Assembly (NCBI GenBank): GCA_040219255.1 | Contig: JAVJSW010000073.1 | Span: 1 to 64,000 of the forward strand | Direction of reading: 5' to 3' | DNA from: Sumerlaeia bacterium | GTDB taxonomy: Bacteria; Sumerlaeota; Sumerlaeia; SLMS01; JAHLLQ01 | DNA: 64,000 nt | Shown here: piece by piece, positions 27,082 through 42,698 of the stretch | Numbering within the stretch: position 1 is the first letter of the stretch | How the letters are laid out: each line of letters opens with the position of its first letter | Made by a program: the position numbers and the translations under genes | The notes under the pieces: model-generated | The model's input: only the letters and a program-made list of their open reading frames with translations | Databases searched by the model: none | Told to the model about the DNA's origin: nothing

Positions 27082-28137
27082 ATGCGCATCGGCATCGTCA
27101 CTTTTCACCGCGTCGTGAACGCCGGCGGGTTCCTTCAGGCCTATGCGCTTCAGCAGTTTCTGCGCAACGCCGGCCACGACGCCATGATCGCCAACCACAT
27201 CGACCGCGGCGTTCTCAAGCAGGAGATGAAATCGGCCATCCATCGCGCCAAAGGCTTCAAGCGCTTCGCCGAGCTGCTGCCCATCTGGCGCTATCGCCAA
27301 CTCCAGCAGAAGCACTTCCACCTCTCGCCCCCCATCAAGGACCCGGCCAGCTATGACTGGTCTTATTTCGACGTGGTGGTCTTCGGCAGCGACGAGCTGT
27401 GGAACTACGAGAACTTCTTCTATGGTCTGAAACCGTTCTTCTTCGGCCACGGCATCGAGGGGCCACGAAAAGTCTCCTACGCCCCCAGTTTCGGCGAGAT
27501 CAAGCCGACGGACAAACTGCCCGAGCAGGTCGTCTCTGGAATCAAGAGCCTGGACGCGGTGGCCGTGCGCGATCACAACTCGGTCGAGGTCGTGAAGACC
27601 CAAACCGGCATCACGCCCGAGCTGGTGCTGGACCCGACGCTGATCTACGATTTCGAAGGCGATGTGGTGGCGGATAACGCCCGCGACGACGCCCTGATCG
27701 TGTACGCGACCAGCGTCAGCGAACCGCACCGCGAGCAGCTTCGGGCGTTCGCCAAGGACAAGGGACTGCGGCTGGTGTCGCTCGGCACCCGCCAGTGGTG
27801 GTGCGACGAAGGCTACGACAAGATTTCTCCCTTCGAGGTGCTCGGCTGGTTCTCGAAGGCGCCCTACGTTTTCACGAACACCTTCCACGGAACGATTTTC
27901 GCCACGAAGTTCGGTGCCACGAGCTGCATCAACATCGGCCACGGCAAGGCCAACAAGATCCTGTCGCTCTCCAGGACGCTGGGCCTTGAGAATCGCATCC
28001 TGAAACCGGGCGAGAGCTGCGCCGACATCTTCGAGCGCCCCGTCGCCAGCCAGGCGATTCAGGAGCGGCTCGCCGATTCCATCGCCGCCTCGCGCAACTA
28101 TCTGCTTACCCAATGCGCCGCGGCGCGGGAGAAGTAA
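27082..28137 (+). CDS. Polysaccharide pyruvyl transferase family protein
   Basis: IGIVTFHRVVNAGGFLQAYAL, GSDELW, SYAPSFG, VRD, DPTL, TNTFHG. Confidence 0.85.
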   Translation: MRIGIVTFHRVVNAGGFLQAYALQQFLRNAGHDAMIANHIDRGVLKQEMKSAIHRAKGFKRFAELLPIWRYRQLQQKHFHLSPPIKDPASYDWSYFDVVVFGSDELWNYENFFYGLKPFFFGHGIEGPRKVSYAPSFGEIKPTDKLPEQVVSGIKSLDAVAVRDHNSVEVVKTQTGITPELVLDPTLIYDFEGDVVADNARDDALIVYATSVSEPHREQLRAFAKDKGLRLVSLGTRQWWCDEGYDKISPFEVLGWFSKAPYVFTNTFHGTIFATKFGATSCINIGHGKANKILSLSRTLGLENRILKPGESCADIFERPVASQAIQERLADSIAASRNYLLTQCAAAREK

Positions 28138-28139
28138 CC

Positions 28140-28994
28140 ATGGCGACGCGCCTGGAAAACGAACCGCTTTCCAAACATACGACGCTCAAGATCGGCGGCC
28201 CCGCCGAGGTGCTCTCCATCCCGGATGACCTCGACGATCTGTTGGCCGAGATCCGTCACTGTCAGGAAAACGGCATCACCTATCGCATCCTGGGCCGAGG
28301 TTCGAACCTGCTGGTGAACGACAAAGGTGTTAAGGGCTTCGTGATCAAGCTGTCGAAAGCTTGCTCCGAACTGACCTTCGAGGGCGACGGCCGCGTCATC
28401 TGCGGCGCCAGCGTGACCTTTCAGAAGTTCATCAAGTTCTGTATCGAGAACGATTTGTATGGGAATGAAAACCTGCAATCGGTGCCCGGAGCGATGGGCG
28501 GCGGGATTTTCATGAACGCCGGCACCTGGACGGATAAGAATCTTTACTTGTCCGACTACCTGGTGAAAGTGAAATATTTCGACGGCAAAGAAATCCGCGA
28601 GATCGCCAAGGAAGACTGCCGCTTCGGTTATCGCTCTTCGATCTTCCAGGAAAAGCCTGAGTGGGTGATTCTTTCCGCGGAGTTCAAACTGCCCCACCAG
28701 CCCAAGGAAGTGGGCGAGAAAGCCAAGCGCGACCGCGTCGAGTGGTCCAAAGGCTATCAGGACATCACCTATGCCAACGCGGGCTCGGTTTTCCGGGCGG
28801 GGCACGGCCGAGCCTACAACTGGGTCAAGGGCATGAAAATCGGCGGAGCCGGGTGGTCCGAACGGACCGGCAACTGGATCAACAACTACGGCAGCGCCAA
28901 GTGCAGTGACGTGCTTTGGCTGATCCGCATCGTCAAAGTTCTGAGCTTTCTGATGGGGCGGAAAGCCTCGATCGAGTGGATTTACTGGAAGTAG
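28140..28994 (+). CDS. murB: MurB-like FAD-dependent enolpyruvyl reductase (divergent paralogue)
   Basis: HTTLKIGGPA, ILGRGSNLLV, PGAMGGGIFMNAG, FGYRSSIF, NAGSVF. The C-terminus deviates (TGNW where HANF is usual). Starts 2 nt after the pyruvyltransferase stop. Confidence 0.75.
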   Translation: MATRLENEPLSKHTTLKIGGPAEVLSIPDDLDDLLAEIRHCQENGITYRILGRGSNLLVNDKGVKGFVIKLSKACSELTFEGDGRVICGASVTFQKFIKFCIENDLYGNENLQSVPGAMGGGIFMNAGTWTDKNLYLSDYLVKVKYFDGKEIREIAKEDCRFGYRSSIFQEKPEWVILSAEFKLPHQPKEVGEKAKRDRVEWSKGYQDITYANAGSVFRAGHGRAYNWVKGMKIGGAGWSERTGNWINNYGSAKCSDVLWLIRIVKVLSFLMGRKASIEWIYWK

Positions 28995-28999
28995 CAGGC

Positions 29000-30187
29000 T
29001 CAGAGCCCGCGGCGATAAGTCTTCAACAGTTCTCCGCCATACGTCCGGACGAGCCGAATGGGACGCCAGAGGTAGAGCAACGGCGCGAAGATTCTCGGCA
29101 GCGGGAACGTGGCCCGATCCTTCTCGGAAGGATGGGCGCGAGCCATCGCGTACCTGGCCAGTTCCATGCGCTTGGTCGTCTGATCGCGAAGAAGGCTGCT
29201 GGGCCCGTAGCAAATCCACTCTGGCAGGGGCGGCGCATTGCCCAGCAGGTACCGGCGGATCGCGCGCGCGTACCAGCGATCCAGCCGGCGGCACTCCACC
29301 CGGTCCGTCATGGCATCGGGCACATCGTAACCGAGGACGTCGCGAAGCAGCCGCAGGCTGATCTGGCAGATGCGCAGCAGCCCTTTGCTGCGGGCTTCCT
29401 GGGCCAGAAGGTCCCAGTCGATGGGAAATTTGCAGGTCATCAGGCCGACATCACACAACCATCCAAGGCGCGCCCAGCCGTGCTTGAAGCCATGGGCGCA
29501 GAGCGCGATGATGGTGTGTTCGGGTTTGAGGAAGAGGAACTTCCACCCCTGGAGCCGAATCTCCAGGGCCTGCGCGATCCAGTCGCGATCCAGGGGAAAA
29601 TCGTAGGCTTCCGAACCGAAGGAGTGATGCAACTCGAGGTGGGCCTTCGTCCGCGAGCAGACCAGGCTGCGGTGAAAACGTGTGTCGCTCTGCGACGGCG
29701 CGATGGCGAAACCGCCTTCCGACGCCAGAACCCGGACCGCTTCCTCGAAGGCCTCGGGCAGCACGAGCAAGTCGATGTCGGCGCTGTATCGTTCGCTCAA
29801 TCCGCCATAGAGCACGTGTGAAAGCAGCATGCCCTTGTAGGGCACGGCCGCGATGCCGTGGGTCTTGAGAAGTTTGACGACTTCGCCCAGCACGTGGACC
29901 TGCACCAGATTGCGGCGGGCGGTGTGCTCGGCCCATTGGCGCAGAGCCTTGGCGATTTGAGTGCTGGGGAATAGAGCTGGCCGGGCCTGGAAGTGCCGAT
30001 GGGCGAGGCCCGCGAGGCCGTGCGAGCGGCACAGGTGGACGAAGGCCTCCCAGTCGAACCCTTCGGCGGCCGTAAGTCTGCGGACGCGCTCTTCCAGTTC
30101 GCCGGAGAGCATTTCCGGCGGCCGCGCGAGGCAAAACATCAGCCGCCTCTCGCGCGAAGGTTCCCGGTCCTCAGCAGCGCCCGGCAT
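29000..30187 (-). CDS. Uncharacterised nucleotidyltransferase (NTP_transf_5-like)
   Basis: YKGMLLSHVLYG...RYSADIDLLV, HLELH, HGFKHGWARLGWLCD. Overlaps the rfbB 3' end. Confidence 0.8.
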   Translation of the reverse strand: MPGAAEDREPSRERRLMFCLARPPEMLSGELEERVRRLTAAEGFDWEAFVHLCRSHGLAGLAHRHFQARPALFPSTQIAKALRQWAEHTARRNLVQVHVLGEVVKLLKTHGIAAVPYKGMLLSHVLYGGLSERYSADIDLLVLPEAFEEAVRVLASEGGFAIAPSQSDTRFHRSLVCSRTKAHLELHHSFGSEAYDFPLDRDWIAQALEIRLQGWKFLFLKPEHTIIALCAHGFKHGWARLGWLCDVGLMTCKFPIDWDLLAQEARSKGLLRICQISLRLLRDVLGYDVPDAMTDRVECRRLDRWYARAIRRYLLGNAPPLPEWICYGPSSLLRDQTTKRMELARYAMARAHPSEKDRATFPLPRIFAPLLYLWRPIRLVRTYGGELLKTYRRGL

Positions 30188-31229
30188 AATTCAGGTCGTA
30201 GTACTCGCGATATTCCCCGCTGCGGCAGGACGCCAGCCAGCCCTCGTGGTCGAGGTACCACTGCACGGTTTGGCGCAGGGCGCCGCGGAAGTCGTGCCGG
30301 GGGCGCCAGCCGAGTTCCCTTTCGATTTTTGAAAAGTCGATCGCGTACCGCCGGTCGTGGCCGGGGCGGTCCTTCACGTAAGTCACCAGTCCGCGGCGCG
30401 GACCGTTCGCAAGGGGCGCAACCATTTCGTCGATCAGGTCGCAGAGGGCGTGGACCAATTCGATGTTGGGGACTTCGTTGTCGCCGCCGATGCAGTAGGT
30501 TTCCCCGCCGCGGCCCTTGAGGAAAGCGGTGAGGAGCGCTTCGCAGTGGTCCTCGACGTAGAGCCAGTCGCGCACGTTCATGCCATCGCCATAGACCGGC
30601 AGCTTTTTGCCTTCGATAGCGTTGCAGATCATGACCGGGATCATTTTCTCGGGGAACTGCCAGGGGCCGAAATTGTTCGAGCAGTTCGTCGTCACCGTGT
30701 CCATGCCGTGGGTGTGGTGGCAAGCGCGGACGAGGTGGTCGCTGGCGGCTTTGCTGGCGGAGTAAGGGGAGTTGGGGGCGTAGTTCGTGGTCTCGCTGAA
30801 GGGCGGATCGGCAGGGCCGAGGGACCCGAAGACTTCGTCGGTGGAGACATGAAGGAAACGGCCCTTGATCGACTGCTCCACCCAAGCCTTGCGGGCGGCT
30901 TCGAGGAGGGCGTGGGTGCCTTCCACGTTGGTCTTGATAAAGGCTCCCGCGTCAAGGATCGAGCGGTCCACGTGGCTCTCGGCGGCCAGATGGAAAACAC
31001 CGTCGATGGAGACCTCGGCGAAGAGGGAGTCGAGGAGGTCGCGGTCTGTGATGTCGCCGCGGACGAATCGGAAACGGGGGTTATCGCGGGCCTGCTCGAG
31101 ATTCGCCAGATTTCCAGCGTAAGTCAAAGCGTCGAGGACAACGATGTCTTGCTCCGGCAGTTCCCGGAGGATTCGGTGGACAAGGTTCGAACCGATGAAG
31201 CCGGCCCCGCCGGTGATCAGCCATGCCAT
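30171..31229 (-). CDS. rfbB: dTDP-glucose 4,6-dehydratase
   Basis: ITGGAGFIGSN, DALTYAGN, HLAAESHVDRSI, STDEVFG, YSASKA, NNFGPWQFPEK, DRPGHDRRY. Confidence 0.96.
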   Translation of the reverse strand: MAWLITGGAGFIGSNLVHRILRELPEQDIVVLDALTYAGNLANLEQARDNPRFRFVRGDITDRDLLDSLFAEVSIDGVFHLAAESHVDRSILDAGAFIKTNVEGTHALLEAARKAWVEQSIKGRFLHVSTDEVFGSLGPADPPFSETTNYAPNSPYSASKAASDHLVRACHHTHGMDTVTTNCSNNFGPWQFPEKMIPVMICNAIEGKKLPVYGDGMNVRDWLYVEDHCEALLTAFLKGRGGETYCIGGDNEVPNIELVHALCDLIDEMVAPLANGPRRGLVTYVKDRPGHDRRYAIDFSKIERELGWRPRHDFRGALRQTVQWYLDHEGWLASCRSGEYREYYDLNYAGRC

Positions 31230-31602
31230 AAGAGTGCCCTTTCCTATGGGCGCGCTCGCCCCGGGTCTCAATAGACGAGGGGTTGGGGATGCCGGTCAAG
31301 GCGACTTGCGCTTTATTAGAGCCACCTATTTCGGACGGCCAACCTCTCTTGACACTTGCTCGTCAATTCCCGCAATCACACGCGTCCGCCTCATTTTCCC
31401 CGGAACGCCAGACGGTGCCGAGAGGCCCGGCCAGCGGGGGGGACGATGGGGGGCGACCGATGAATCGCCAGCCGGCGCTCTTGGGCTGTGAGCCGAACTG
31501 TGGCTCTCTCCCCCGCGCCGGCGATAAAAAAATTATTCGATTGGCCTCCGCGGTCATATCCCCGCGGCCTGGAGCCCATCCAGCGTCTAAAGGACCCCCT
31601 TC

Positions 31603-32382
31603 ATGAAAACAGTTATTCTCGCCGGTGGCTTGGGAACGCGACTCAGCGAAGAAACCGTTTTGCGCCCCAAACCCATGGTGGAGGTCGGCGGCAAGCCCAT
31701 CCTCTGGCACATTCTCAACATTTACGCCGCCCACAACTTCACGGAATTCATCATCGCACTTGGCTACAAGGCGGAGTTCGTGAAGGAGTACTTCCTGAAT
31801 TTCTACGCTCTGAACAACGATCTGACGGTGGACCTCGCCGCCGGCCAGACCAAGGTCCATGACGGCAAGCAGCCCAACTGGAAGATTCACCTGAAGGACA
31901 CGGGCCTGCACACCATGACTGGCGGCCGCATCAAGCGCCTGCGCGATTGGATCGGCGACGAAACCTTTATGGTCACCTATGGCGACGGCCTCGCCAACGT
32001 GGATATCGGCAAGCTGGTGGAATTCCACAAGGCCCACGGCAAGCTGGCCACCCTGACCGCCGTTCGCCCCCCGGCCCGCTTCGGCGGTCTGCGGTTCGAG
32101 GGCGACCGCATCGCCGAGTTCCTGGAGAAGCCCCAGACCGGCGAAGGCTGGATCAATGGCGGCTTCTTCGTGCTCGAGCCGGGCGTGTTCGACTACATCG
32201 CCGACGACACGATTTCCTGGGAGCGCGAACCCCTGGAAGCCATCGCCAATGCGGGCCAACTGATGGCCTTCCGCCACGAGGGCTTCTTCCAGCCGATGGA
32301 CACGATCCGCGAGAAGACCATGCTCGATAAGATGTGGAACAGCGGGAACGCGCCCTGGAAGGTCTGGGGCGACCAGAGCTGA
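31603..32382 (+). CDS. rfbF: Glucose-1-phosphate cytidylyltransferase
   Basis: ILAGGLGTRLSEET, PKPMVE, TMTGGRIKR, TYGDG, WINGGFF, MDTIRE, APWKVW. Confidence 0.95.
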   Translation: MKTVILAGGLGTRLSEETVLRPKPMVEVGGKPILWHILNIYAAHNFTEFIIALGYKAEFVKEYFLNFYALNNDLTVDLAAGQTKVHDGKQPNWKIHLKDTGLHTMTGGRIKRLRDWIGDETFMVTYGDGLANVDIGKLVEFHKAHGKLATLTAVRPPARFGGLRFEGDRIAEFLEKPQTGEGWINGGFFVLEPGVFDYIADDTISWEREPLEAIANAGQLMAFRHEGFFQPMDTIREKTMLDKMWNSGNAPWKVWGDQS

Positions 32383-32444
32383 GGGCTGCTCATCCCGAAC
32401 GTCCGATCGACCCAATTGACGATACGAAAGAGGTTTAGGCAGCG

Positions 32445-33584
32445 ATGAAAGACTTCAAGACAACGTATGCGGGGCAGTCCGTCTTTCTGACGGGCCACAC
32501 GGGTTTCAAAGGCTCCTGGATGGCGCTCTGGCTTTCTCAGCTGGGGGCTTCGGTGCATGGCTATTCCCTGCCGGCGCCGACGGATCCAAGCAACTTCGCC
32601 GTCTCTCGGATCGAAGACGCCATCGCCAGTCACACCGTCGGCGACATTCGCGATCTGGACAAAATGACCGCCGCGCTTCGCCAGGCCAAACCCCGCTTCG
32701 TCTTCCATCTCGCCGCCCAGCCCCTGGTGCGCCTCAGCTATCGCGAACCGCGCGAGACCTACGAAACCAACGTCATGGGCACCGTCAATCTGCTGGAAGC
32801 CGTGAGAGCCTATGCGGCGGAGACGAATGAGCCCGTGACCTGTGTGGTAATCACCAGCGACAAGTGCTACGAAAACCGCGAGCACGTCTGGGGTTACCGC
32901 GAATGCGACGCCATGGGCGGCCACGATCCCTACAGTTGCAGCAAAGGCGTCGCGGAACTTGTGACGTCGTCGTACCGCCGCAGCTTTTTCGACCCGGCCC
33001 ATTTCTCCGAGCATGGCGTGAAGTTGGCTTCGGCCCGCGCCGGCAACGTGATCGGCGGGGGCGACTGGGCGCTCGACCGGATCGTGACCGACATTGTGCG
33101 CACCCTGGCCGCGGGCGACGCGGTGCCGGTTCGCAACCCCAAGGCGATCCGCCCCTGGCAGCATGTGCTCGAGCCCATCAGCGGCTACATGACATTGGCG
33201 GCCGCGATGGCGGACTCGGAGCCGAAGGCGGAAGGCGCCAAGTTCTGCGACGGCTGGAATTTCGGCCCCCGCAGCGGCGACGAACGCTGCGTCGGCGATC
33301 TTGTGGAGGAATTCATCTCGGCCTGGGGGAGCGGCTCCTGGGACGACCTGAGTGACCCGAACGCGCTGCACGAGGCGAAGATCCTGCGCCTGTCGATCGA
33401 CAAGGCGGTCTCCATCCTGAATTGGCGCCCGCGCTGGGATTTTCCCGAAACGATCAGCCGCACCGCTAACTGGTATCGCCTTTATCACGAAACCCGCGCG
33501 GAAGGCGCCTCGATGCGCGAGGCCTGCCTGGAAGACATTGCCGCCTACACCGGTCAACTGACCGCCGAACCCGCCCAAGTCTAA
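32445..33584 (+). CDS. rfbG: CDP-glucose 4,6-dehydratase
   Basis: TGHTGFKGSW, HLAAQPLVR, TSDKCY, DPYSCSK, RAGNVIGGGDW, RPWQHVLEP, WNFGP. Confidence 0.95.
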   Translation: MKDFKTTYAGQSVFLTGHTGFKGSWMALWLSQLGASVHGYSLPAPTDPSNFAVSRIEDAIASHTVGDIRDLDKMTAALRQAKPRFVFHLAAQPLVRLSYREPRETYETNVMGTVNLLEAVRAYAAETNEPVTCVVITSDKCYENREHVWGYRECDAMGGHDPYSCSKGVAELVTSSYRRSFFDPAHFSEHGVKLASARAGNVIGGGDWALDRIVTDIVRTLAAGDAVPVRNPKAIRPWQHVLEPISGYMTLAAAMADSEPKAEGAKFCDGWNFGPRSGDERCVGDLVEEFISAWGSGSWDDLSDPNALHEAKILRLSIDKAVSILNWRPRWDFPETISRTANWYRLYHETRAEGASMREACLEDIAAYTGQLTAEPAQV

Positions 33585-33599
33585 GAAAAGGAAGCCTAC

Positions 33600-34556
33600 A
33601 TGGCCGACTCAAAAGCGATCTTAGTCACCGGAGCGGGCGGTTTCCTCGGCAAACGCGTTTGCCGCCGACTCCTGGCCGATGGCCACACCGTTCACGCGCT
33701 GGAGTTTCGCGAGGACGCGATTCGCAGCATCCCCATCCCTGAGGGTGCGCCGGGAACTCTGGTTCCCCAGATTCTCGATCTCACCAACGCCACCTCCCTC
33801 GACAATCTTTTCGAGGCCGCTCCGATCCAAAGCGTCATCCACCTGGCGGCTTACGGCGTGCGCGCCGACCGCCTCGAAGTGGACAAAATGCTCAACGTGA
33901 ACGCCACCGCCACGGCGATGCTGGCGCACGCGGCCAAGAAGGCCGGCATCGAGCGCTTCCTTCTGATCGGCTCCGGCTCGGAATATCTGCCGGTGGCGCG
34001 TCCCACGACCGAAAGCGATGTGATGGGGGCGATCAACCTCTACGGCGCGTCGAAGATCAGCGCGTGGTACACGCTCGATTATCTTCGGCGCATGGAATCC
34101 TTCCCCCTCGTGACGCTGCGGCCGTTCGGATTTTACGGGATCGGGGAAGTCGTTCCGCGCCTGGTGCCCTACGTTCTGGAGCAGGCGAAGGCCGGCCAGA
34201 CCATGGAGTTCACGGAAGGCACACAGATTCGCGACTGGTTGTTTGTCGACGATCTTGTCGACGCGATCGTGCGGGCGTTGCTGATGCCTCAGGCGCTGGG
34301 CGAAGTTTTCAACATCGGTTACGGTCCTTCCGGGGCCTGCACGGTGCGCGAAGCGGTGGAGACCGCGGTCCGTGTGGCCGGGGGCGATCTGTCGCTGGCG
34401 AAGTTCGGCGCCATCGTGCGCGAGCGCGCCGAACCGCCGTACTTCGTCTGCGATCCATCGAAGGCCATGACGCTGCTGAAGTGGCGGCCGAAGACGGGCC
34501 TGCGCGAAGGCCTTGAGCTGACCGCGGAGTCCCTTTGGGGAGCGAAGGACAGCTAA
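33600..34556 (+). CDS. NAD(P)-dependent nucleotide-sugar 4-ketoreductase/epimerase
   Basis: TGAGGFLG, HLAAYG, GSGSEY, YGASK, QIRDW. Follows rfbG, where CDP-deoxysugar reductases normally sit. Confidence 0.8.
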   Translation: MADSKAILVTGAGGFLGKRVCRRLLADGHTVHALEFREDAIRSIPIPEGAPGTLVPQILDLTNATSLDNLFEAAPIQSVIHLAAYGVRADRLEVDKMLNVNATATAMLAHAAKKAGIERFLLIGSGSEYLPVARPTTESDVMGAINLYGASKISAWYTLDYLRRMESFPLVTLRPFGFYGIGEVVPRLVPYVLEQAKAGQTMEFTEGTQIRDWLFVDDLVDAIVRALLMPQALGEVFNIGYGPSGACTVREAVETAVRVAGGDLSLAKFGAIVRERAEPPYFVCDPSKAMTLLKWRPKTGLREGLELTAESLWGAKDS

Positions 34557-34561
34557 CCCCC

Positions 34562-36169
34562 ATGAGCGACGACGCACGGAAAAATGCCTCACGGCGGGTG
34601 AACTTCGCCGTTATGGTTTCCTTCCTGGGGCGGACGATGGGGATTCTCTCCAGTCTGTTCCTGCTACCCGTGCTGTTCCGCTTTCTCAGCGATGAAGAAA
34701 TCGGCCTGTGGTTCCTGCTGCTCAGCAGCCAGACGTTCCTCGGGCTCCTGGGTTTTGGCGTGGCGCCCACAATGGCGCGCCATATCGCTTTCGCAAAAGG
34801 CCTGAGCGGCCCTGACCCGGAAGTCGAACTGACGGGCGAAAGCCGCGAGCGCATCGCGAATCTGGTCACGACGGGGCGGTACATCCTCTTTGGTGTCGCC
34901 GCGCTTGTCTTGTTGGTGGCGCTGCCTATCGGGTACTTCGCGATCAAGGGGCTCGATCTGGTCGAGGTCCCCTACAGCACGGCGAATATGGCCTGGCTCA
35001 TCGTCTGCATCGGTTATTCCATTGGTGTTTATATTCAGTATCTCAGTTCGTACCTCATCGGCATCGGCTATGTGGGCTGGGACACGACGATCCGGATTCT
35101 GGTGGAGTTCGTGGCTCTGGGGGCCAAATTCCTGATCGTGATTTTCGGCGGTGGCATCGTCGGCCTCGCCATCGCCCAGGTTGCAACCGCGGTGGTCAAC
35201 CGGGCCCTGGTCGTGGCGTTTATTCGCAAGCGCCGGCCCGATCTGTTCCATCTTAAGGGGCGTTGGCAGAGAAGCCTGGTGCAAGAGACCTGGCGCCCGG
35301 CGATTTCCTACTGGGTCATGATGCTGGGGGCGTTCATGCTCAGCAAGACCGACGCCTACTTCATCGCGTTCTTCAAGGGCGTCAACGAACTGCCGCTGTA
35401 CCAGGCGGCCTATCGGCTTTTCGAGAACGTGATGGATATCGCCATCTTGTTCACCACCACATCGGCGACTTTCATCAGCCAAGCCTGGAAAGCGGAGGAC
35501 ATGCGCGGCGTGCATGCTCTGTCCTTTCGTTCCTGGCGCATCGGTGTGGTTGTGATGGCCACGGGGGCGGCTTTCCTGCTGACCGGGGGAAACGATTTCC
35601 TGCATCTTTGGCTAAAGACCGAAGACCAGTTGCCGATGCTGGTTCTGGTGATGATCGCTTGTCTGTTCGGCATGCGGGTGAATTTCAAGTTGCTCAGCAT
35701 GGCCGCCCGGGCGACGGACTTCGAGCGCTGGGCCGTGACAAGTGTGATCGCTGGCATCCTCAATCTGGGTCTGACCTGGTGGCTAATCCAGGAGCTTGGC
35801 TTGTGGGGCGTTCCCTTGAGCACGTTGATTGCTGTCACGGTGACGAACGGATGGTACGTCACCTATCACTCGCTCAAGCGTCTCAAGGTCTCGTTCGGCC
35901 GGTACCTGTTGAACATGCCGCTTTTCGGGGCTGGAATTTTTCTGGTCTGCTTCCTGAGTATCGAGGGGCTCTTCGACGCGGCTTCTCATCTGACTTTCTA
36001 TCAGGAGCAGACCGATTGGGCGCGGGTCGCGATTTCCAGCGGCGTTTGCGCGATAGTGGGGGGATCGGCGTTCATCGCCGTCTCCTTCAGCCGGGTCACC
36101 GGCCAACTCCGCCGTGTGTCCCGCCGGATGCACGGCATGGTTCGAAAGCAACCTTCACCCTCCGTCTAA
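34562..36169 (+). CDS. wzx: Oligosaccharide flippase (Wzx/MOP family)
   Basis: About 13-14 TM segments, with a typical N-terminus (LPVLFRFLSDEEIGLWFLL...FGVAPTMARHIA). Lies inside the glycan operon. Confidence 0.8.
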   Translation: MSDDARKNASRRVNFAVMVSFLGRTMGILSSLFLLPVLFRFLSDEEIGLWFLLLSSQTFLGLLGFGVAPTMARHIAFAKGLSGPDPEVELTGESRERIANLVTTGRYILFGVAALVLLVALPIGYFAIKGLDLVEVPYSTANMAWLIVCIGYSIGVYIQYLSSYLIGIGYVGWDTTIRILVEFVALGAKFLIVIFGGGIVGLAIAQVATAVVNRALVVAFIRKRRPDLFHLKGRWQRSLVQETWRPAISYWVMMLGAFMLSKTDAYFIAFFKGVNELPLYQAAYRLFENVMDIAILFTTTSATFISQAWKAEDMRGVHALSFRSWRIGVVVMATGAAFLLTGGNDFLHLWLKTEDQLPMLVLVMIACLFGMRVNFKLLSMAARATDFERWAVTSVIAGILNLGLTWWLIQELGLWGVPLSTLIAVTVTNGWYVTYHSLKRLKVSFGRYLLNMPLFGAGIFLVCFLSIEGLFDAASHLTFYQEQTDWARVAISSGVCAIVGGSAFIAVSFSRVTGQLRRVSRRMHGMVRKQPSPSV

Positions 36170-37017: not shown

Positions 37018-37977
37018 ATGATGACCTTAGCCGAACCCAAAGCCGAAATGGAGTCCTCCGGGGACACTCCGCCAGCGGCGCTGCCTAACTTCATCATGGT
37101 CGGCGCGCCCAAGTGCGGCACCACGGCCATGTTTCGATACCTGAGCGCTCATCCCGAGGTCTTCATGTCCGATCCCAAGGAGCCGATGTACTTCAATTAC
37201 ATGGGCGACGGCAGCGGTTCGGACGAGGCGACCTACGTGACGAACTGGACGGAATACCGCAACCTCTTCTCCGGGGCCGCTGGCAAGGCGGCCATCGGCG
37301 AGGCGTCCACCTGGTATCTCTACAGCCCCGCCGCCGCCAAGCGCATCCACGATCGCCTGCCGGACGCGAAGATCATCGCTTTCCTGCGCCAGCCGGTGGA
37401 TCGCGCATGGTCTTTGTATAACTTCAACATTCAGCGCCGCAAAGGCGAGTTGGCGACGTTTGAGGAGGAGTTGGCCCGCGAACCCGAGTTCGTGGAAAAG
37501 CGCTCGTCCTGGGAGCGGCATTACTTGGGTTTCGGGCGCTATGGCGAGCAGCTCGAGCGCTACTATACGCTCTTCCCGCGAGAAAACATTCGTGTCTACC
37601 TGATGGACGAAATCCAGGCCGACTCGGTGGCCGTGGCCCGCGATCTGCTCCAATTCATCGGGGTGGACCCTTCCTTCGCCAAAGACGCCGTGAAGGGCGC
37701 GAACGTGACCTTCGTTCCCAAGAACAAGGCGATCCACAAGTTTTTCGGAAACCAGGGTCTGCGCGCCCTGACGGCCAAAATCCTTCCGGAAGCCATCAAG
37801 CGCCGCATCCGCAAGGTGGAGCGAGACAACATGACTCGGCCGCCCAAGCTGGACCCGGCTCTGCGCGAGAAACTGACGCGGCCCTTCCACGACGATTTCC
37901 GCAAAATCGAGGAACTGACCGGCAAGGACTTGTCCGCCTGGTACGCCAAGGATTCGGCCGGAGCGGCCAAAGGATGA
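37018..37977 (+). CDS. Sulfotransferase (heparan-sulfate-sulfotransferase-like PAPS motifs)
   Basis: PNFIMVGAPKCGTT, HPEV, KEPMYF, GEASTWY, LRQPVDRAWS. AGGAG RBS. Confidence 0.9.
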   Translation: MMTLAEPKAEMESSGDTPPAALPNFIMVGAPKCGTTAMFRYLSAHPEVFMSDPKEPMYFNYMGDGSGSDEATYVTNWTEYRNLFSGAAGKAAIGEASTWYLYSPAAAKRIHDRLPDAKIIAFLRQPVDRAWSLYNFNIQRRKGELATFEEELAREPEFVEKRSSWERHYLGFGRYGEQLERYYTLFPRENIRVYLMDEIQADSVAVARDLLQFIGVDPSFAKDAVKGANVTFVPKNKAIHKFFGNQGLRALTAKILPEAIKRRIRKVERDNMTRPPKLDPALREKLTRPFHDDFRKIEELTGKDLSAWYAKDSAGAAKG

Positions 37978-37980
37978 CCT

Positions 37981-38910
37981 ATGAGTAAGCGTCTGACCGT
38001 TGCCCTGCCCACCTACAACCGCGAGTCGATGCTGCGCCCCGCCATCGAGAGCGTCCTCAAGTGTCCCCGCCAGGACTTCGAACTCCTCATCGTGGACAAC
38101 GCCAGCAAGGACAAGACCGGCGAACTGGTGGCCTCCTTCGACGATCCCCGCATCGTGTACAAGCGCTACGATGAAGTGGTCAGCATGTACGCCAACCACA
38201 ACCGCTGCATTCGAGACGCGAATTCGGAGTGGGTGGCGTTCCTTCACAGCGACGACAAATTCAGCGACCTGGAAAACGCCTTCAAGCTCCTTGACGAGCA
38301 CGGCGAGAGCGCTGACGTGGTCTGGACTCATTCCTACATCCCGGCGCGCCACAACCACCAGCGGCTGACCTGGCGGGAAATCCTCAAGATGCTCAACGGC
38401 TACTCGCCCTGCGGAAAGCTCTATCGGGCTTCGGCGGTCGAGAACGCCGGGTTTTTCGCCGAGGACAATATCATCTCCGACTGGGAAACCTGCCTGCATA
38501 TCGCCTATGGCGGCGGGACCATCGTGGTGGATCAGGACAAGCCGTTCGTGGAGCGCGTTTTCCATGAGGGCCAATCGCAGGTTGGCATCAAGTACGACGG
38601 CACCTTCTACACGCACCGGGCCCGATGCGTGAAACGCTTCTTCGCCAGCATCCGGCCCGAAGATCGCGAGGCGCTGCTCGACGAAATCGCGTCCGATTGG
38701 GACGGGGTCAAGTCTCGAGAACTGGCGCTGCTGTTGAACCTGGCGGGTCGCCGCGGCGACGCCCGCGAAGTCATCGCCCGCTCAACCGAAAGCGGCCGCC
38801 TGAAGCTCTCCGCCAAGGCGAAGTTCAAGAACCTGATCGCTTCCGCTCTGGGCGAGCGGCATTATGAAAAAGTCTACTGGATTCTCGGCCCGATGACCCG
38901 GCCCCGCTAA
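37981..38910 (+). CDS. Glycosyltransferase family 2
   Basis: VALPTYNR, IVDNASKD, FLHSDD. Confidence 0.88.
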   Translation: MSKRLTVALPTYNRESMLRPAIESVLKCPRQDFELLIVDNASKDKTGELVASFDDPRIVYKRYDEVVSMYANHNRCIRDANSEWVAFLHSDDKFSDLENAFKLLDEHGESADVVWTHSYIPARHNHQRLTWREILKMLNGYSPCGKLYRASAVENAGFFAEDNIISDWETCLHIAYGGGTIVVDQDKPFVERVFHEGQSQVGIKYDGTFYTHRARCVKRFFASIRPEDREALLDEIASDWDGVKSRELALLLNLAGRRGDAREVIARSTESGRLKLSAKAKFKNLIASALGERHYEKVYWILGPMTRPR

Positions 38911-38926
38911 GGAGAACGCTGTCGTT

Positions 38927-40120
38927 TTGGAAACGCTCACCGAGCCAGAAACGAATTCGACCCCGGCGTCTGACGAAATCGCCAGAGCGCCGCGCGTGGC
39001 GTTTTACCTGCCGTCGCTGGCTGGCGGGGGAGCGGAACGGACCATTCTCAAACTGGCGGCGCGATTCTCCGAAATCGGCATCCCTACCGATTTGGTTCTG
39101 GCTAAGGTCAAGGGGGCCTACACCGGCGATGTGCCGGAAGCGATACGCGTACTGGAAATCGGCTCCACGTCGGTCAAGCAGCGCCTGCCCTGGCTGATGA
39201 AGTACCTGCGGCGCGAGCGGCCCCACGCTATGATCACGGCCCTGGATCACGGAAATGTAGCGGGCATCGCCAAGAAGCTGAGCCTTTCCAGGACGCGCGT
39301 TATCTACACGATTCGCAATCAGTTGTCCTTGGAACTGGGCCCCAATCGCGTGGCCAAAGAGCAGGCCCGCAGCTTTCATATCGCCAAGCGCTTCTTTCGC
39401 TGGGCCGACGCGGTGGTGGGCGTGTCCGACGGCGTTTGCGACGATTTCGCCGACTTCGCCGATTTTCCCCGCCATCGAATCCAGACGATCTACAACCCGA
39501 TCGTGACGCCGCTCCTGCTCGAGCAGGCGGAGGCGGGTGTGCCGGACCATCCGTTCTTTCATCGCGAGGACCGCCAGCCGATCATCGTCGGCGCCGGGAG
39601 GCTGTCTTCCCAGAAGAACTTCCCCTGCCTGATGAAGGCCTTCGCGAAGATGCGTCGGGAAATGCCGAGCCGGCTGCTCATTCTCGGCAAGGGAGAATTG
39701 CTCGAGAAGCTAGAGAGTCTCGGGAAGGACCTCGGCCTGGGTCCGGACGATTTCGATCTGCCGGGATTTCAGGCCAATCCCTACCGGTATTTCCGTCATG
39801 CCGATCTGTTCGTTTTGTCGTCGAACTTCGAGGGCCTCCCCGGCGCCCTGAGCGAAGCGCTGGCCTGCGGTTGCCCGGTGGTCTCGACCGATTGCCCAAG
39901 CGGTCCGAGGGAAATTCTCGAGGACGGGCGATGGGGCGAACTGGTGCCGGTCGACGATCCGGATGCCTTGGCCGCCGCGATGCTGCGAACGCTTCGCAAT
40001 CCGCCGAAGCGCGAGATCTGCCGCGCCCGGGGCATGGCTTTTTCCCAGGACCGCTCGGTGGCGAATTATCTGAAGATCATCGGGCTCGGCCAGTTCGCTC
40101 CGGAGAACTCGCCGTCATGA
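38927..40120 (+). CDS. Glycosyltransferase family 4
   Basis: GGGAER, GRLSSQKNF, SNFEGLPGALSEA (EX7E), TDCPSGPREIL. Confidence 0.9.
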   Translation: METLTEPETNSTPASDEIARAPRVAFYLPSLAGGGAERTILKLAARFSEIGIPTDLVLAKVKGAYTGDVPEAIRVLEIGSTSVKQRLPWLMKYLRRERPHAMITALDHGNVAGIAKKLSLSRTRVIYTIRNQLSLELGPNRVAKEQARSFHIAKRFFRWADAVVGVSDGVCDDFADFADFPRHRIQTIYNPIVTPLLLEQAEAGVPDHPFFHREDRQPIIVGAGRLSSQKNFPCLMKAFAKMRREMPSRLLILGKGELLEKLESLGKDLGLGPDDFDLPGFQANPYRYFRHADLFVLSSNFEGLPGALSEALACGCPVVSTDCPSGPREILEDGRWGELVPVDDPDALAAAMLRTLRNPPKREICRARGMAFSQDRSVANYLKIIGLGQFAPENSPS

Positions 40121-41379
40121 CCAAGCGCAAGATCCTCATCAGTGGCGGGCTCGCCGGGGGCGGCATCAAGACCATCGTCAAGAACGTCCTCCAACTGCTC
40201 GCGCGGGAAGACGCCGAAGTCACGGTGCTCTCTCTGCAAAGCCATTGGACGCCCGAGGATTTCCGCGACGTCGAGGGCAGCGGGGCCCGATTCGTTTATC
40301 CAAAGAGCCCGCTTCTCAAACTGCCCCACGGAGCCAAAATCGAAGCGATTCTGACCTGGCCCCTGAGGCTTCGCCGAGACTTCGATGTGCTCTACTGCAT
40401 CGGCCATTCGAAAGTCCACGCCCCACTGCGCAAGTTTCTCGGGCCCGGGGGCCTCAGCATCTATCACGAGGTGGTGGAAGCGCCCCATCCGGACGTTCGC
40501 GATGGCTCGGCGAAAATCCGCGACATCATGGTACACGATGGTATTGTGGCGACATCGCGCGATATCGCCGAGCGGATGCGCCCCTTCTTTCCCGCCAAAC
40601 CGATGACGGTGATTCCATCGCTTCTGGAGCACGTCCCCGCCCCCGTGAATCGCAGGCCGGGCCCCGTTTCCGCCGACGGCAAGCTCAACGTGGCCTATCT
40701 GAGCCGCATCGCGAAGCAGAAGTTTCCCCACTGGCTGGTGGCGCGATGGAAGGAATGGACCGAACGGCCCGGGCCTTTGCAGGGTGCTCGGCTGAACCTC
40801 TATGCCAGTACCAAGGCCAATGAAACCAAGGACTCGGCTCTTGTGCTCGATCAAATTCTGCGGACCATTCAGAAGGACGATCTGGCTGGCCAGGTGATCC
40901 TCCACCGCACGGAGTTCCGAGGCGAGGACCGGATGGAAAAGCTCCGCGCCGTTTTTGCCGAATCCGACCTGATCGCGTTGCCCTCGTTTTACGAGGGCCT
41001 GCCACTTAGCCTGGTGGAAGCGATGCTCCATGGCGTGCCCATCGTGGCCCTGGCTTCAGGGGGAATTGCCGAATTGGGCGATGACAATCCGGATGCGGAA
41101 ATCGCCGATTTCCTCCTGTCCGACGGGCACGATCCGAACTTCGCCCGCTTCGAGGCGGCGCTGTTCCGCATCGCCGAACGCATCCAATCCGGGGAAAACG
41201 ATCCCCAGCGCCTCCACAAATGGACTAACGAGCGCTACGGGTACGAGGTGGCCCGGGCGAGATGGGTCCGGGCTTTCTTCGAGACCGATGAGTTTCTGGC
41301 GGCACTGCGAAATGAGCCGGTCAGGCAAGCTTCCAAGTCCGGCGACGAGTCCTCCGCGGCGGCGGCCAGCGTTTCGTGA
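40117..41379 (+). CDS. Glycosyltransferase family 4
   Basis: LSRIAKQK, PSFYEGLPLSLVEA. Start MTKRKIL at an ATGA overlap. Confidence 0.85.
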   Translation: MTKRKILISGGLAGGGIKTIVKNVLQLLAREDAEVTVLSLQSHWTPEDFRDVEGSGARFVYPKSPLLKLPHGAKIEAILTWPLRLRRDFDVLYCIGHSKVHAPLRKFLGPGGLSIYHEVVEAPHPDVRDGSAKIRDIMVHDGIVATSRDIAERMRPFFPAKPMTVIPSLLEHVPAPVNRRPGPVSADGKLNVAYLSRIAKQKFPHWLVARWKEWTERPGPLQGARLNLYASTKANETKDSALVLDQILRTIQKDDLAGQVILHRTEFRGEDRMEKLRAVFAESDLIALPSFYEGLPLSLVEAMLHGVPIVALASGGIAELGDDNPDAEIADFLLSDGHDPNFARFEAALFRIAERIQSGENDPQRLHKWTNERYGYEVARARWVRAFFETDEFLAALRNEPVRQASKSGDESSAAAASVS

Positions 41380-42638: not shown

Positions 42639-42698
42639 AGGGGGCGTCAGCGCGCTCTCTCGGCTCAAGCATTACACGTTTCGAGGTCGAATAGTCGT

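What the first reader, a model, noticed from the sequence alone, without database searches (positions are those of the whole stretch)
27082..28994. Pyruvyltransferase + divergent MurB: candidate module for lactyl-ether (1-carboxyethyl) decoration of a surface glycan
Seen: a polysaccharide pyruvyltransferase is followed 2 nt later by a MurB homologue, away from any dcw/mur genes and next to the glycan locus. The MurB keeps the FAD motifs and putative catalytic Arg (GYRSS), Ser (NAGS) and terminal Glu, but has TGNW for HANF and a shortened C-domain. Known: MurA/MurB make muramic acid by enolpyruvyl transfer from PEP followed by flavin-dependent reduction to a lactyl ether, and lactyl-ether sugars occur in several O-antigens and capsules with poorly defined biosynthesis. 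Inferred: this pair repeats MurA/MurB chemistry on a different sugar, with the pyruvyltransferase-family protein acting as an enolpyruvyl transferase.
Basis: partly seen in the sequence, partly recalled or inferred. Interest (0 to 1): 0.76.

Follow-up and report, generated by a model that had tools for sequence, protein, structure and literature searches.

The report
Pyruvyltransferase plus MurB-like reductase glycan module
A sugar-pyruvyltransferase gene and a divergent copy of the cell-wall enzyme MurB form a conserved pair in surface-polysaccharide gene clusters of bacteria and salt-loving archaea, and most likely add a lactic-acid ether group to a sugar, a decoration whose biosynthesis is poorly understood.

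Summary
A PF04230 pyruvyltransferase gene (27082-28137) is followed 2 nt later by a 284-aa MurB-like gene (28140-28994). The pair sits at the edge of a Wzx/Wzy glycan locus.

The genome has a separate canonical murB inside a dcw cluster on another contig.

The MurB-like protein belongs to a distinct clade (SH-aLRT 100). At least 108 of the top 150 representative clusters fall in it.
- **Kept:** the residues that hold and protonate the enolpyruvyl group (E. coli Arg159, Ser229, Glu325).
- **Replaced:** two diphosphate-binding residues (Asn233, Gln288/His).

The clade is tied to one pyruvyltransferase subfamily:
- The pyruvyltransferase is present in 4 of 4 clade loci (own, a haloarchaeal plasmid, Cetobacterium, Prevotella) and in 0 of 79 canonical murB loci.
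- Two fused pyruvyltransferase-MurB-like proteins exist.
- The two proteins' identity matrices correlate (r = 0.89).

Best reading (about 0.6): the pyruvyltransferase transfers enolpyruvyl from PEP to a glycan sugar, and the flavoenzyme reduces it to a 1-carboxyethyl (lactyl) ether. The chemistry, acceptor sugar and electron donor are untested.

I found no open paper describing this pairing. Two papers on E. coli lactyl O-antigen genes could not be read.

The parts
27082..28137 (+). Polysaccharide pyruvyltransferase-family gene (351 aa), the only PF04230 gene found in this genome
   Evidence: PF04230 at 88.4 bits. It is not CsaB: TIGR03609 scores 15.9 against a cut-off of 213.1. It is the single PF04230 hit in the genome. 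The AF2 model has pLDDT 95.7 and two Rossmann-like halves, and Foldseek returns GT-B enzymes at TM 0.4-0.5.
28127..28131 (+). GGGAG Shine-Dalgarno-like word inside the 3' end of the pyruvyltransferase gene, 8 nt before the MurB-like ATG. It suggests translational coupling.
   Evidence: Read directly from the sequence. Function is inferred.
28140..28994 (+). MurB-like flavoenzyme (284 aa), member of a distinct pyruvyltransferase-associated MurB clade
   Evidence: The AF2 model has pLDDT 94.1 and TM 0.91 to MurB structure 4pyt.
29000..30187 (-). Convergent gene of the PF14907 family of uncharacterised nucleotidyltransferases
   Evidence: PF14907 at 178.5 bits.
30171..31271 (-). dTDP-glucose 4,6-dehydratase
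   Evidence: TIGR01181 at 467.8 bits.
31603..34556 (+). CDP-hexose genes: glucose-1-P cytidylyltransferase (31603-32382), CDP-glucose 4,6-dehydratase (32445-33584) and an SDR epimerase/reductase (33600-34556)
   Evidence: TIGR02623 at 384.9 bits, TIGR02622 at 462 bits, and the Epimerase family.
34535..36169 (+). Wzx-like O-unit flippase
   Evidence: NF041503 at 121.1 bits, below its cut-off of 300.
37018..37977 (+). Sulfotransferase
   Evidence: PF13469 and PF00685.
37981..43829 (+). Five glycosyltransferase genes: GT2 at 37981-38910; GT4 at 38927-40120, 40117-41379, 41376-42638 and 42699-43829
43861..45180 (+). Wzy-like oligosaccharide repeat-unit polymerase
   Evidence: TIGR04370 at 40 bits, exactly at its cut-off.
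46109..47698 (+). GT4 glycosyltransferase
47780..48733 (-). Sugar-phosphate nucleotidyltransferase, the likely far boundary of the glycan locus
   Evidence: PF00483 at 221.5 bits.

Best explanation
The two genes form one functional module that adds a 1-carboxyethyl (lactyl) ether to a sugar of the polysaccharide made by the adjoining Wzx/Wzy locus.

- **Step 1 (inferred).** The PF04230 enzyme takes phosphoenolpyruvate and transfers the enolpyruvyl group to one sugar hydroxyl, releasing phosphate. This is what MurA does, but on an unrelated GT-B-like scaffold.
- **Step 2 (inferred from conserved residues).** The MurB-like flavoenzyme binds the enolpyruvyl carboxylate with Arg165 and Glu279. It delivers a hydride from reduced FAD and a proton from Ser216, giving the lactyl ether.

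The acceptor is not UDP-GlcNAc. Whether it is another nucleotide sugar or a lipid-linked repeat unit is open. The reductant is presumed to be NAD(P)H, as in MurB, but this is untested.

The genome's peptidoglycan MurB is a different gene, in the dcw cluster.
For: **Paralog, not the housekeeping gene.**
- A canonical murB lies on contig C46 (MurB_C 97.8 bits against 30.4 here). The same cluster also encodes murE, murF, murD, ftsW, murC and ftsA.
- In the Prevotella genome G075 the clade member (260.4 bits) also coexists with a second, weak MurB match (70.3 bits).

**Distinct clade.**
- In an 82-row tree, 34 rows split from 48 canonical rows with SH-aLRT 100 and branch length 0.68. The 34 rows are the window protein, its 30 closest homologues, and the Natrinema, Cetobacterium and Prevotella proteins.
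- A two-HMM test separates 4 clade loci (+69 to +188 bits) from 79 canonical loci (-110 to -195 bits) with no overlap.
- In an exhaustive profile search, 108 of the 150 best representative clusters are clade-like.

**Catalytic residues kept, across the 108 clade representatives.**
- Arg159-equivalent: 108 of 108.
- Ser229-equivalent: Ser 81, Thr 25.
- Glu325-equivalent: 101, with 7 gaps.
- A review passage assigns Arg159 and Glu325 to the enolpyruvyl carboxylate, and Tyr190, Lys217, Asn233 and Glu288 (as that passage prints it; E. coli K-12 reads Gln288) to the diphosphate (PMC12844806, section 3.4.2).

**Diphosphate binders changed.**
- Asn233 position: no consensus in the clade (K 23, E 13, R 12 and others). 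Canonical-like representatives have N 26 and R 11 of 42.
- Gln288/His position: Thr 75 and His 0 of 108 in the clade, against His 42 of 42 canonical-like.

**Coupling to a pyruvyltransferase.**
- The subfamily-type pyruvyltransferase is present in 4 of 4 clade loci and 0 of 79 canonical MurB loci, within the held flanks of up to 10 kb.
- It lies immediately upstream on the same strand in the window (2-nt gap), on Natrinema pellirubrum pNATPE01 (17-nt overlap) and in Cetobacterium somerae (13-nt gap). It is one GT4 gene away in a Prevotella MAG. All four sit inside glycan loci.
- 5 of the 7 best pyruvyltransferase homologues have exactly the same longest-contig length as a close MurB-like homologue: 5787, 5751, 528968, 8888 and 3953.
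- Two independent fusion proteins, P0294 (645 aa) and P0330 (640 aa), carry PF04230 N-terminally and the MurB-like domain C-terminally. That is the operon order. They are 34% identical to each other.
- For 9 pairs, the identity matrices of the two proteins correlate at Mantel r = 0.893, reached by 0 of 5000 permutations.
- The other pyruvyltransferase in the Prevotella locus, adjacent to an FrhB-like gene, is not detectably similar to this subfamily (E 0.7).

**Haloarchaeal carriers.** Natrinema, Natronorubrum and Natronomonas carry it. From general knowledge, these make no murein.

**Own genome.** It has one PF04230 gene, which is this one. Its two EPSP-synthase/MurA-family genes lie elsewhere, on contig C4.
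Against: - No biochemical or glycan-structure evidence exists for any carrier in my set.
- PF04230 enzymes characterised so far (CsaB, Pvg1p) make cyclic ketals (passages of PMC10435577). None is known to release an enol ether.
- Asn233 and residue 288 are listed as diphosphate contacts, and MurB's NADPH binds in the same channel (recalled). Their loss could therefore also mean a different electron donor, or a different reaction.
- One clade representative (P0309) is fused to an FrhB-like Fe-S flavoprotein rather than a pyruvyltransferase. This genome has no FrhB-like gene at 92% completeness.
- 25 of the 30 close MurB-like homologues have no contig-length match among the 120 pyruvyltransferases listed, so their context is unknown.
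- Each fusion rests on a single assembled contig, so a sequencing or gene-calling error cannot be excluded.
- The Mantel correlation would also arise from shared organismal descent.
- The pair lies at the edge of the locus, convergent with the next genes and 128 nt downstream of argH. Its transcription unit is unknown.
Confidence: 0.6

Rival explanations
1. The two enzymes are coupled, but the product is not a simple lactyl ether. One possibility is that the flavoenzyme acts on the pyruvyl group in another way: oxidatively, as an isomerase, or on a ketal-forming intermediate. Another is that it needs a different electron donor and makes a different reduced substituent.
For: - The coupling evidence says nothing about the product.
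- The substrate-channel residues Asn233 and Gln288/His are changed.
- One clade member is fused to an FrhB-like Fe-S flavoprotein. An FrhB-like gene also sits in the Prevotella locus. Both hint at other redox wiring.
Against: - The Arg/Ser(Thr)/Glu set that defines enolpyruvyl reduction in MurB is kept in 101 to 108 of 108 representatives.
- The model superposes on MurB structures at TM 0.91.
- Ketal pyruvyltransferases work alone in vitro (passages of PMC10435577).
Confidence: 0.17
2. The two genes are independent decorators that merely travel together. The pyruvyltransferase adds an ordinary ketal pyruvate. The MurB-like enzyme makes a muramic-acid-type nucleotide sugar from an enolpyruvyl-UDP-sugar supplied by the housekeeping MurA, or by a MurA-like enzyme.
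For: - Glycan loci do recruit MurA/MurB-type pairs. In Bacteroidales genome G165, a MurB lies next to an EPSP-synthase/MurA-family gene between a flippase and a Wzy gene.
- The window genome has a MurA-family gene available in trans.
Against: - That Bacteroidales MurB is of the canonical type (MurB_C 121 bits) and falls with canonical MurBs in the tree. When MurA chemistry is used, the canonical type is the partner.
- The clade lacks the conserved diphosphate contacts.
- It is fused to the pyruvyltransferase in two proteins.
- It occurs in haloarchaea.
- The association is with one pyruvyltransferase subfamily, not with pyruvyltransferases in general.
Confidence: 0.12
3. It is a redundant second peptidoglycan MurB that happens to sit next to a glycan locus.
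For: It reaches the TIGR00179 murB cut-off by 2.4 bits. Several source databases name clade members 'UDP-N-acetylmuramate dehydrogenase'.
Against: - A canonical murB sits in the dcw cluster.
- This copy falls in a separate clade.
- It fails NF010480.
- His is replaced in 108 of 108 clade representatives.
- The gene is absent at E <= 1e-40 from the 74 other genomes of its phylum.
- Haloarchaea carry it.
Confidence: 0.03

Closest known systems
MurB, UDP-N-acetylenolpyruvoylglucosamine reductase (EC 1.3.1.98; TIGR00179, PF01565 + PF02873)
   Same: - Same three-domain fold: TM 0.91 to 4pyt and 1hsk.
- Same FAD-binding domain.
- Same Arg/Ser/Glu residues that hold and protonate the enolpyruvyl group.
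   Different: - Separate clade.
- Asn233 and Gln288/His equivalents replaced, giving 'KTGNW' for 'KH(A/G)NF'.
- A loop of about 6 residues deleted.
- Not in a dcw cluster.
- Always an extra copy where the rest of the genome could be checked: 2 of 2 genomes, own and G075.
- Present in haloarchaea.
MurA + MurB two-step synthesis of the lactyl ether of muramic acid
   Same: The proposed logic is identical: enolpyruvyl transfer from PEP to a sugar hydroxyl, followed by flavin-dependent reduction.
   Different: The transferase here is a PF04230 GT-B-like protein, not an EPSP-synthase-fold enzyme. It has no PF00275 match, and Foldseek returns only GT-B enzymes. The acceptor is a glycan sugar, not UDP-GlcNAc for murein.
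Ketal pyruvyltransferases CsaB (Paenibacillus alvei), Pvg1p (S. pombe) and WcaK-type enzymes (PF04230)
   Same: Same Pfam family. The presumed PEP donor is the same. The 42-row subfamily alignment has invariant Arg163 and His269, and Arg and His residues are reported as PEP binders in Pvg1p and CsaB (passages of PMC10435577).
   Different: - Below the CsaB equivalog cut-off by about 200 bits.
- No PDB sequence match at E <= 1.
- Forms a subfamily that travels with, and is fused to, a MurB-like reductase.
- A ketal product would need no reductase.
Genes for glycolactilic acids in E. coli and Shigella O-antigens (wfeP of O124/O164; O69 and O146 clusters)
   Same: Same class of product. A review passage states that O164 lacks the lactyl group of O124 because of a frameshift in wfeP (PMC7685785). 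Lactyl groups are listed for O58, O124, O146, O69 and O150.
   Different: I could not learn which protein family WfeP belongs to. Liu et al. 2008 and Knirel et al. 2017 are not held, and supplements are closed. These papers may already propose a pyruvyltransferase/reductase route. blastn with the Cetobacterium and Prevotella modules found nothing in 5,426 E. coli genomes, which is uninformative at this divergence.
MurA-like + canonical-type MurB pair inside a Bacteroidales glycan locus (G165, locus L116)
   Same: An extra MurB placed in a Wzx/Wzy locus, presumably for a lactyl-ether sugar.
   Different: There the partner is an EPSP-synthase-family enzyme and the MurB is canonical (MurB_C 121 bits). 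Here the partner is PF04230 and the MurB is of the divergent clade.

Membership tests
MurB (UDP-N-acetylenolpyruvoylglucosamine reductase) | FAD_binding_4 domain plus MurB_C domain | tested here: met
   PF01565 at 51.7 bits. PF02873 at 29.3 bits against a cut-off of 27, which is marginal.
MurB (UDP-N-acetylenolpyruvoylglucosamine reductase) | Score above the curated equivalog cut-offs | tested here: inconclusive
   TIGR00179 at 146.9 against 144.5 (just met). NF010480 at 197.3 against 259 (not met). Five other MurB equivalogs are not met.
MurB (UDP-N-acetylenolpyruvoylglucosamine reductase) | Catalytic Arg159, Ser229 and Glu325 (E. coli numbering) | tested here: met
   R165, S216 and E279. Kept in 108, 106 (Ser or Thr) and 101 of 108 clade representatives.
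MurB (UDP-N-acetylenolpyruvoylglucosamine reductase) | Diphosphate-binding Asn233 and Gln288 (His in type II MurB) | tested here: not met
   A220 and T243. The clade has His 0 of 108 and no consensus at the Asn position. Canonical-like representatives have His 42 of 42.
MurB (UDP-N-acetylenolpyruvoylglucosamine reductase) | Falls within canonical MurB in a tree | tested here: not met
   A 34-row clade is split from 48 canonical rows with SH-aLRT 100. The two-HMM score difference is +188 bits.
MurB (UDP-N-acetylenolpyruvoylglucosamine reductase) | The genome's peptidoglycan murB (dcw/mur context, sole copy) | tested here: not met
   The canonical copy is on C46, in a cluster that also encodes murC and ftsA.
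MurB (UDP-N-acetylenolpyruvoylglucosamine reductase) | Reduces UDP-GlcNAc-enolpyruvate with NADPH | not testable with these tools
   Needs an enzyme assay.
PF04230 polysaccharide pyruvyltransferase | Pfam domain above the gathering score | tested here: met
   88.4 bits against 25.3, covering residues 13-278.
PF04230 polysaccharide pyruvyltransferase | GT-B-like two-domain fold | tested here: met
   The AF2 model has pLDDT 95.7. The best Foldseek matches are GT-B enzymes (WaaC, UDP-GlcNAc 2-epimerases) at TM 0.40-0.52. Pvg1p itself was not among the rows shown.
PF04230 polysaccharide pyruvyltransferase | Conserved basic and His residues for PEP binding | tested here: inconclusive
   R163 and H269 are invariant in the 42-row subfamily alignment. 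Their equivalence to Pvg1p R217/R337/H339 or CsaB H308 was not aligned here.
PF04230 polysaccharide pyruvyltransferase | Product is a cyclic pyruvate ketal | not testable with these tools
   This is the point in question. The conserved reductase partner argues against a ketal end product.
CsaB (TIGR03609) | Equivalog score | tested here: not met
   15.9 bits against a cut-off of 213.1.
MurA / EPSP-synthase enolpyruvyl transferases (PF00275) | EPSP_synthase domain in the transferase of the pair | tested here: not met
   The pyruvyltransferase has no PF00275 match. The genome's two PF00275 genes are on contig C4.

The most novel reading that the evidence does not exclude
A subfamily of PF04230 'ketal' pyruvyltransferases are in fact true enolpyruvyl (1-carboxyvinyl) transferases: a second, GT-B-fold invention of MurA chemistry. 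With interchangeable flavoreductase partners they would be the general machinery for lactyl-ether sugars in bacterial and archaeal surface glycans. The partners would be the MurB-like clade here, perhaps FrhB-like proteins in Bacteroidota, and perhaps 'nitroreductase' genes in Klebsiella cps loci. This would explain pyruvyltransferase genes in capsule types that carry no ketal pyruvate.
Probability: 0.3. Interest if true: 0.8.

Novelty: new variant of a known kind. Interest (0 to 1): 0.66.

Why it matters
Lactic-acid ethers of sugars other than muramic acid occur in O-antigens, capsules and exopolysaccharides (E. coli O58, O69, O124, O146 and O150; Shigella dysenteriae; Proteus penneri). In the literature I could read, their enzymology is not described.

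This module gives a concrete, testable two-enzyme route and a sequence signature: Thr and Trp in 'KTGNW', plus a loop deletion. The signature separates the reductase from true MurB. That has two practical uses:
- It corrects the common annotation 'UDP-N-acetylmuramate dehydrogenase', including in archaea.
- It allows lactyl-ether glycans to be predicted from genomes.

If confirmed, it would also show that PF04230 enzymes can stop at the enol-ether stage. That bears on the still unexplored mechanism of ketal pyruvylation.

Tried and rejected
- **Genome-contig scan.** The clade alignment picked the pan-MurB motif GG[AG][IV][YFV]MNAG. 79 of the 80 loci returned were canonical MurB. They later served as the negative control.
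- **Metagenome scan.** I used my own degenerate pattern for the clade motif. It gave 19 loci, and none encodes a MurB-like protein.
- **Word-index search for longer proteins.** It found only 3 MurC-MurB fusions. The exhaustive profile search later found the pyruvyltransferase fusions.
- **Sampling whole genomes.** Few carriers turned up:
  - 1 of 75 in the window's own phylum.
  - 3 of 401 Bacteroidales matched, of which only the centre genome is a clade member.
  - 0 of 401 in the phylum of a Desulfuromonadales MAG at E <= 1e-66.
- **Plasmid searches with the Natrinema and Cetobacterium proteins.** No further examples.
- **Phage collection.** 22 records matched at 29-35% identity. The 10 listed rows are unannotated records, which I judged canonical from their identities and did not classify further.
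- **Link to E. coli serotypes with known lactyl sugars.** This failed. blastn found nothing. E. coli and plasmid records get handles without relatives.
- **Knirel et al. 2017.** Not held.
- **Literature.** Ten searches found no open paper linking a PF04230 enzyme with a MurB-like reductase.
- **Complex prediction.** The pair gave no verdict (score 0.00). This is neither for nor against binding.
- **Promoter and terminator scan of 26500-31800.** No promoter-like site, and no terminator between the two genes.
Full report
**1. What is there**

The window is G000:C73:1-64000, about 64% G+C. Two genes make up the finding.

- ORF 27082-28137 (+) encodes a 351-aa protein that matches PF04230, polysaccharide pyruvyl transferase. 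The match is 88.4 bits (E 1e-24) over residues 13-278.
- It is far below the CsaB equivalog: 15.9 bits against a cut-off of 213.1.
- Its stop codon (28135-28137) is followed by two bases and then an ATG at 28140. A GGGAG word lies 8 nt upstream of that ATG.
- ORF 28140-28994 (+) encodes 284 aa with a FAD_binding_4 domain (51.7 bits) and a marginal MurB_C domain (29.3 bits against 27).
- The 28140 start, rather than the in-frame ATG at 28113, fits the N-termini of 30 homologues.
- Against NCBIfam the protein passes TIGR00179 by 2.4 bits and fails NF010480 by 62 bits.

**2. Surroundings**

- Upstream is an argininosuccinate-lyase-like gene (25430-26953), separated by a 128-nt gap.
- Downstream, on the opposite strand and convergent, are a PF14907 nucleotidyltransferase and a dTDP-glucose 4,6-dehydratase.
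- Then, on the + strand, come a glucose-1-P cytidylyltransferase, a CDP-glucose 4,6-dehydratase, an SDR epimerase/reductase, a Wzx-like flippase, a sulfotransferase, one GT2, six GT4s and a Wzy-like polymerase.
- The locus closes with a nucleotidyltransferase on the - strand at 47780-48733.

So the pair sits at one boundary of a Wzx/Wzy heteropolysaccharide locus. None of the 42 window ORFs that I scanned is a mur or dcw gene.

**3. It is not the housekeeping murB**

MurB models hit two places in the 5.35-Mb, 92%-complete genome.

- The other copy is at C46:113890-114849 (319 aa). It has a strong MurB_C domain (97.8 bits) and the canonical motifs.
- It lies in a cluster that also encodes murE, murF, murD, ftsW, murC and ftsA.
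- The genome has only one PF04230 gene, the one in this pair.
- Its two EPSP-synthase/MurA-family genes are elsewhere, on contig C4.

**4. A distinct MurB clade**

- The 30 closest homologues are 271-295 aa and 38-60% identical. Ordinary MurBs follow at 41% identity or less.
- In a maximum-likelihood tree of 82 rows, 34 rows are split from 48 canonical MurBs by a branch of length 0.68 with SH-aLRT 100. The tree used the quick search with no bootstrap. I included every second canonical hit from P0034 to P0122.
- The 34 rows are the window protein, those 30 homologues, and the Natrinema, Cetobacterium and Prevotella proteins. The 48 canonical rows include the genome's own murB.
- HMMs built from the two groups, without the locus-derived rows, classify 83 MurB loci with no overlap. 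Four loci score +69 to +188 bits and 79 score -110 to -195 bits.
- An exhaustive profile search of 1.84 billion representatives put 108 clade-like and 42 canonical-like clusters among the best 150. The clade therefore has at least 108 clusters at 50% identity.
- The AF2 model is confident (pLDDT 94.1) and superposes on MurB structures at TM 0.91.

**5. Which residues are kept and which are changed**

I aligned E. coli K-12 MurB, taken from the annotated genome, to fix the numbering. A review passage assigns roles to the residues (PMC12844806, section 3.4.2):
- Arg159 and Glu325 contact the enolpyruvyl carboxylate.
- Tyr190, Lys217, Asn233 and Glu288, as that passage prints it, contact the diphosphate. 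E. coli K-12 reads Gln at 288, and a second review passage also writes Gln288.

That Ser229 is the proton donor is textbook knowledge that I recall.

| E. coli residue | Window residue | 108 clade representatives | 42 canonical-like representatives |
|---|---|---|---|
| Arg159 | R165 | Arg 108 | Arg 42 |
| Ser229 | S216 | Ser 81, Thr 25 | Ser 34, Cys 8 |
| Glu325 | E279 | Glu 101, gaps 7 | Glu 22, gaps 20 |
| Asn233 | A220 | no consensus (K 23, E 13, R 12, ...) | Asn 26, Arg 11 |
| Gln288 / His | T243 | Thr 75, His 0 | His 42 |
| next aromatic residue | W246 | Trp 94 | Phe 39 |

In addition, a stretch of about 6 residues ('LI(E/D)xxGL') is missing in 97% of the 34 clade rows.

The chemistry-defining residues are conserved and the nucleotide-diphosphate contacts are not. 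That is the pattern expected for the same reaction on a different carrier.

**6. Coupling to a pyruvyltransferase**

This is the strongest result.

- *Context.* On Natrinema pellirubrum plasmid pNATPE01, a 'polysaccharide pyruvyl transferase family protein' gene overlaps the start of the 'FAD-binding protein' gene by 17 nt. The pair lies between GT2/GT4 genes and a flippase. In Cetobacterium somerae the same order occurs with a 13-nt gap, between a GT4 and an O-antigen polymerase. In a Prevotella MAG the MurB-like gene is one GT4 gene away from a PF04230 gene (128 bits), in a locus with Wzy, a GT2 and a UDP-sugar dehydrogenase.
- *How these loci were found.* All three were found by similarity to the MurB-like protein only.
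- *Control.* A subfamily pyruvyltransferase HMM hits 4 of 4 clade loci and 0 of 79 canonical-MurB loci within the held flanks. That HMM sees this subfamily only, not all of PF04230.
- *Same contigs.* 5 of the 7 best pyruvyltransferase homologues share their exact longest-contig length with one of the closest MurB-like homologues. The other 25 MurB-like homologues have no such match among the 120 rows shown, so their context is unknown.
- *Fusions.* P0294 (645 aa) and P0330 (640 aa) carry PF04230 at residues 13-289 and the MurB-like domain from about residue 364 to the end. They are 34% identical to each other over their full length. Each is known from one contig only.
- *Co-variation.* For 9 pairs the two identity matrices correlate at r = 0.893, reached by 0 of 5000 permutations. 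Shared descent of the hosts would contribute to this.
- *Specificity.* The pyruvyltransferases next to MurB-like genes align with each other over their full length (22-49% identity). The second pyruvyltransferase of the Prevotella locus, next to an FrhB-like gene, does not (E 0.7).

**7. Distribution**

Names given by the sources or records are:
- Nostocales cyanobacterium LEGE 11386
- Nodularia sp.
- a Deltaproteobacteria MAG
- Natronorubrum texcoconense
- Natronomonas salina
- Natrinema pellirubrum
- Cetobacterium somerae
- Prevotella sp.

The module is rare and patchy. It was found in 1 of 75 genomes of the window's own small phylum. In a sample of 401 Bacteroidales, only the centre genome is a clade member. 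It was found in 0 of 401 genomes of another phylum at E <= 1e-66. This is the pattern of an accessory glycan gene spread by transfer. That haloarchaea lack murein is general knowledge, not tested here.

**8. Mechanism proposed**

*Shown:*
- two tightly linked genes
- a conserved and sometimes fused pair
- a MurB fold with the enolpyruvyl-handling residues

*Inferred:*
- The PF04230 enzyme adds a sugar hydroxyl to C2 of PEP and eliminates phosphate, giving an enol ether, as MurA does. It does not close a ketal.
- The flavoenzyme reduces that ether to a 1-carboxyethyl ether.

*Open:*
- the acceptor sugar. Three of the four loci encode a nucleotide-sugar dehydrogenase, but the window's does not.
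- whether the acceptor is a nucleotide sugar or a lipid-linked unit
- the stereochemistry
- the reductant

One clade member is fused to an FrhB-like Fe-S flavoprotein. This genome has no FrhB-like gene.

**9. Comparison with what is known**

- Lactyl groups are listed for E. coli O58, O124, O146, O69 and O150 (PMC7685785 passage).
[quoted passage not shown] I could not learn WfeP's family.
- The pyruvylation review PMC6801904 contains neither 'MurB' nor 'lactyl'.
- The CsaB paper calls pyruvylation 'mechanistically unexplored' in its abstract (search listing). The passages I read treat PF04230 enzymes as ketal-forming.
- A survey of Klebsiella capsule loci notes pyruvyltransferase genes in four types without pyruvylation: K8, K22, K37 and K66 (PMC4616057 passage). 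I recall, but could not verify, that K22, K37 and K66 carry lactyl-ether sugars.
- I also recall that Nostoc polysaccharides contain a lactyl-glucuronic acid. Only search listings were seen for that.
- A preprint notes that a 234-Da sugar proposed to be glucolactilic acid occurs in Campylobacter species whose pgl operons hold a pyruvyl transferase gene.
- Ten full-text searches found no open paper that pairs PF04230 with a MurB-like reductase. Liu et al. 2008 and Knirel et al. 2017, which I could not read, may contain such a proposal.

**10. Verdict**

The chemistry remains a prediction.

I file the reductase as working like MurB but not as MurB. Two defining features were tested and not met: the diphosphate contacts and the housekeeping context and phylogeny. 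The pair is best described as a new variant of the MurA/MurB logic with a non-homologous transferase. My confidence in the lactyl-ether reading is about 0.6.

Noticed in passing
L116 (G165:C80) 5055-7291, - strand: A Bacteroidales genome has a canonical-type MurB (MurB_C 121 bits) directly next to an EPSP-synthase/MurA-family gene, inside a locus with a flippase, a GT and a Wzy gene. This looks like a 'classical' MurA/MurB pair recruited to a glycan locus.
   Followed up: partly
P0309 (674 aa, representative protein); L007 4079-6525: One member of the MurB-like clade is fused to a 4Fe-4S + FrhB/FdhB-like domain instead of a pyruvyltransferase. In the Prevotella locus, an FrhB-like gene sits next to a second, unrelated pyruvyltransferase. 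FrhB-like proteins may be alternative redox partners in pyruvyl-group chemistry.
   Followed up: partly
window 37018-37977 (+) and 1525-2877 (-): A sulfotransferase lies inside the glycan locus, and a protein with an FGE-sulfatase domain lies elsewhere in the window. The polysaccharide may be sulfated. The Natrinema locus also has sulfatase and PAPS-reductase-family genes nearby.
   Followed up: no
window 18001-22341: AT skew swings sharply from -0.226 to +0.319 between adjacent 2-kb bins. The swing lies over an 839-aa ORF (19822-22341, - strand) that has no Pfam match, next to two more ORFs (17828-18955 and 18962-19825) that also have none.
   Followed up: no
paper PMC4616057 (Klebsiella cps loci): Pyruvyltransferase genes are reported in four capsule types without pyruvylation: K8, K22, K37 and K66. 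'Nitroreductase' (n = 2) and 'coenzyme F420 hydrogenase' (n = 1) genes are also reported in cps loci. This may be the same logic with other reductases. The supplementary tables could not be opened.
   Followed up: no
L020 (2886-bp contig of a Bathyarchaeia MAG): A canonical-type MurB (two-HMM difference -127 bits) sits on a very short contig binned to an archaeon. This is probably a binning contaminant.
   Followed up: no
L086-L104 (metagenome contigs): 19 contigs contain an exact match to the back-translated TGNWINxYG pattern, yet none encodes a MurB-like protein. Several come from similarly named sample series. What they encode was not examined.
   Followed up: no
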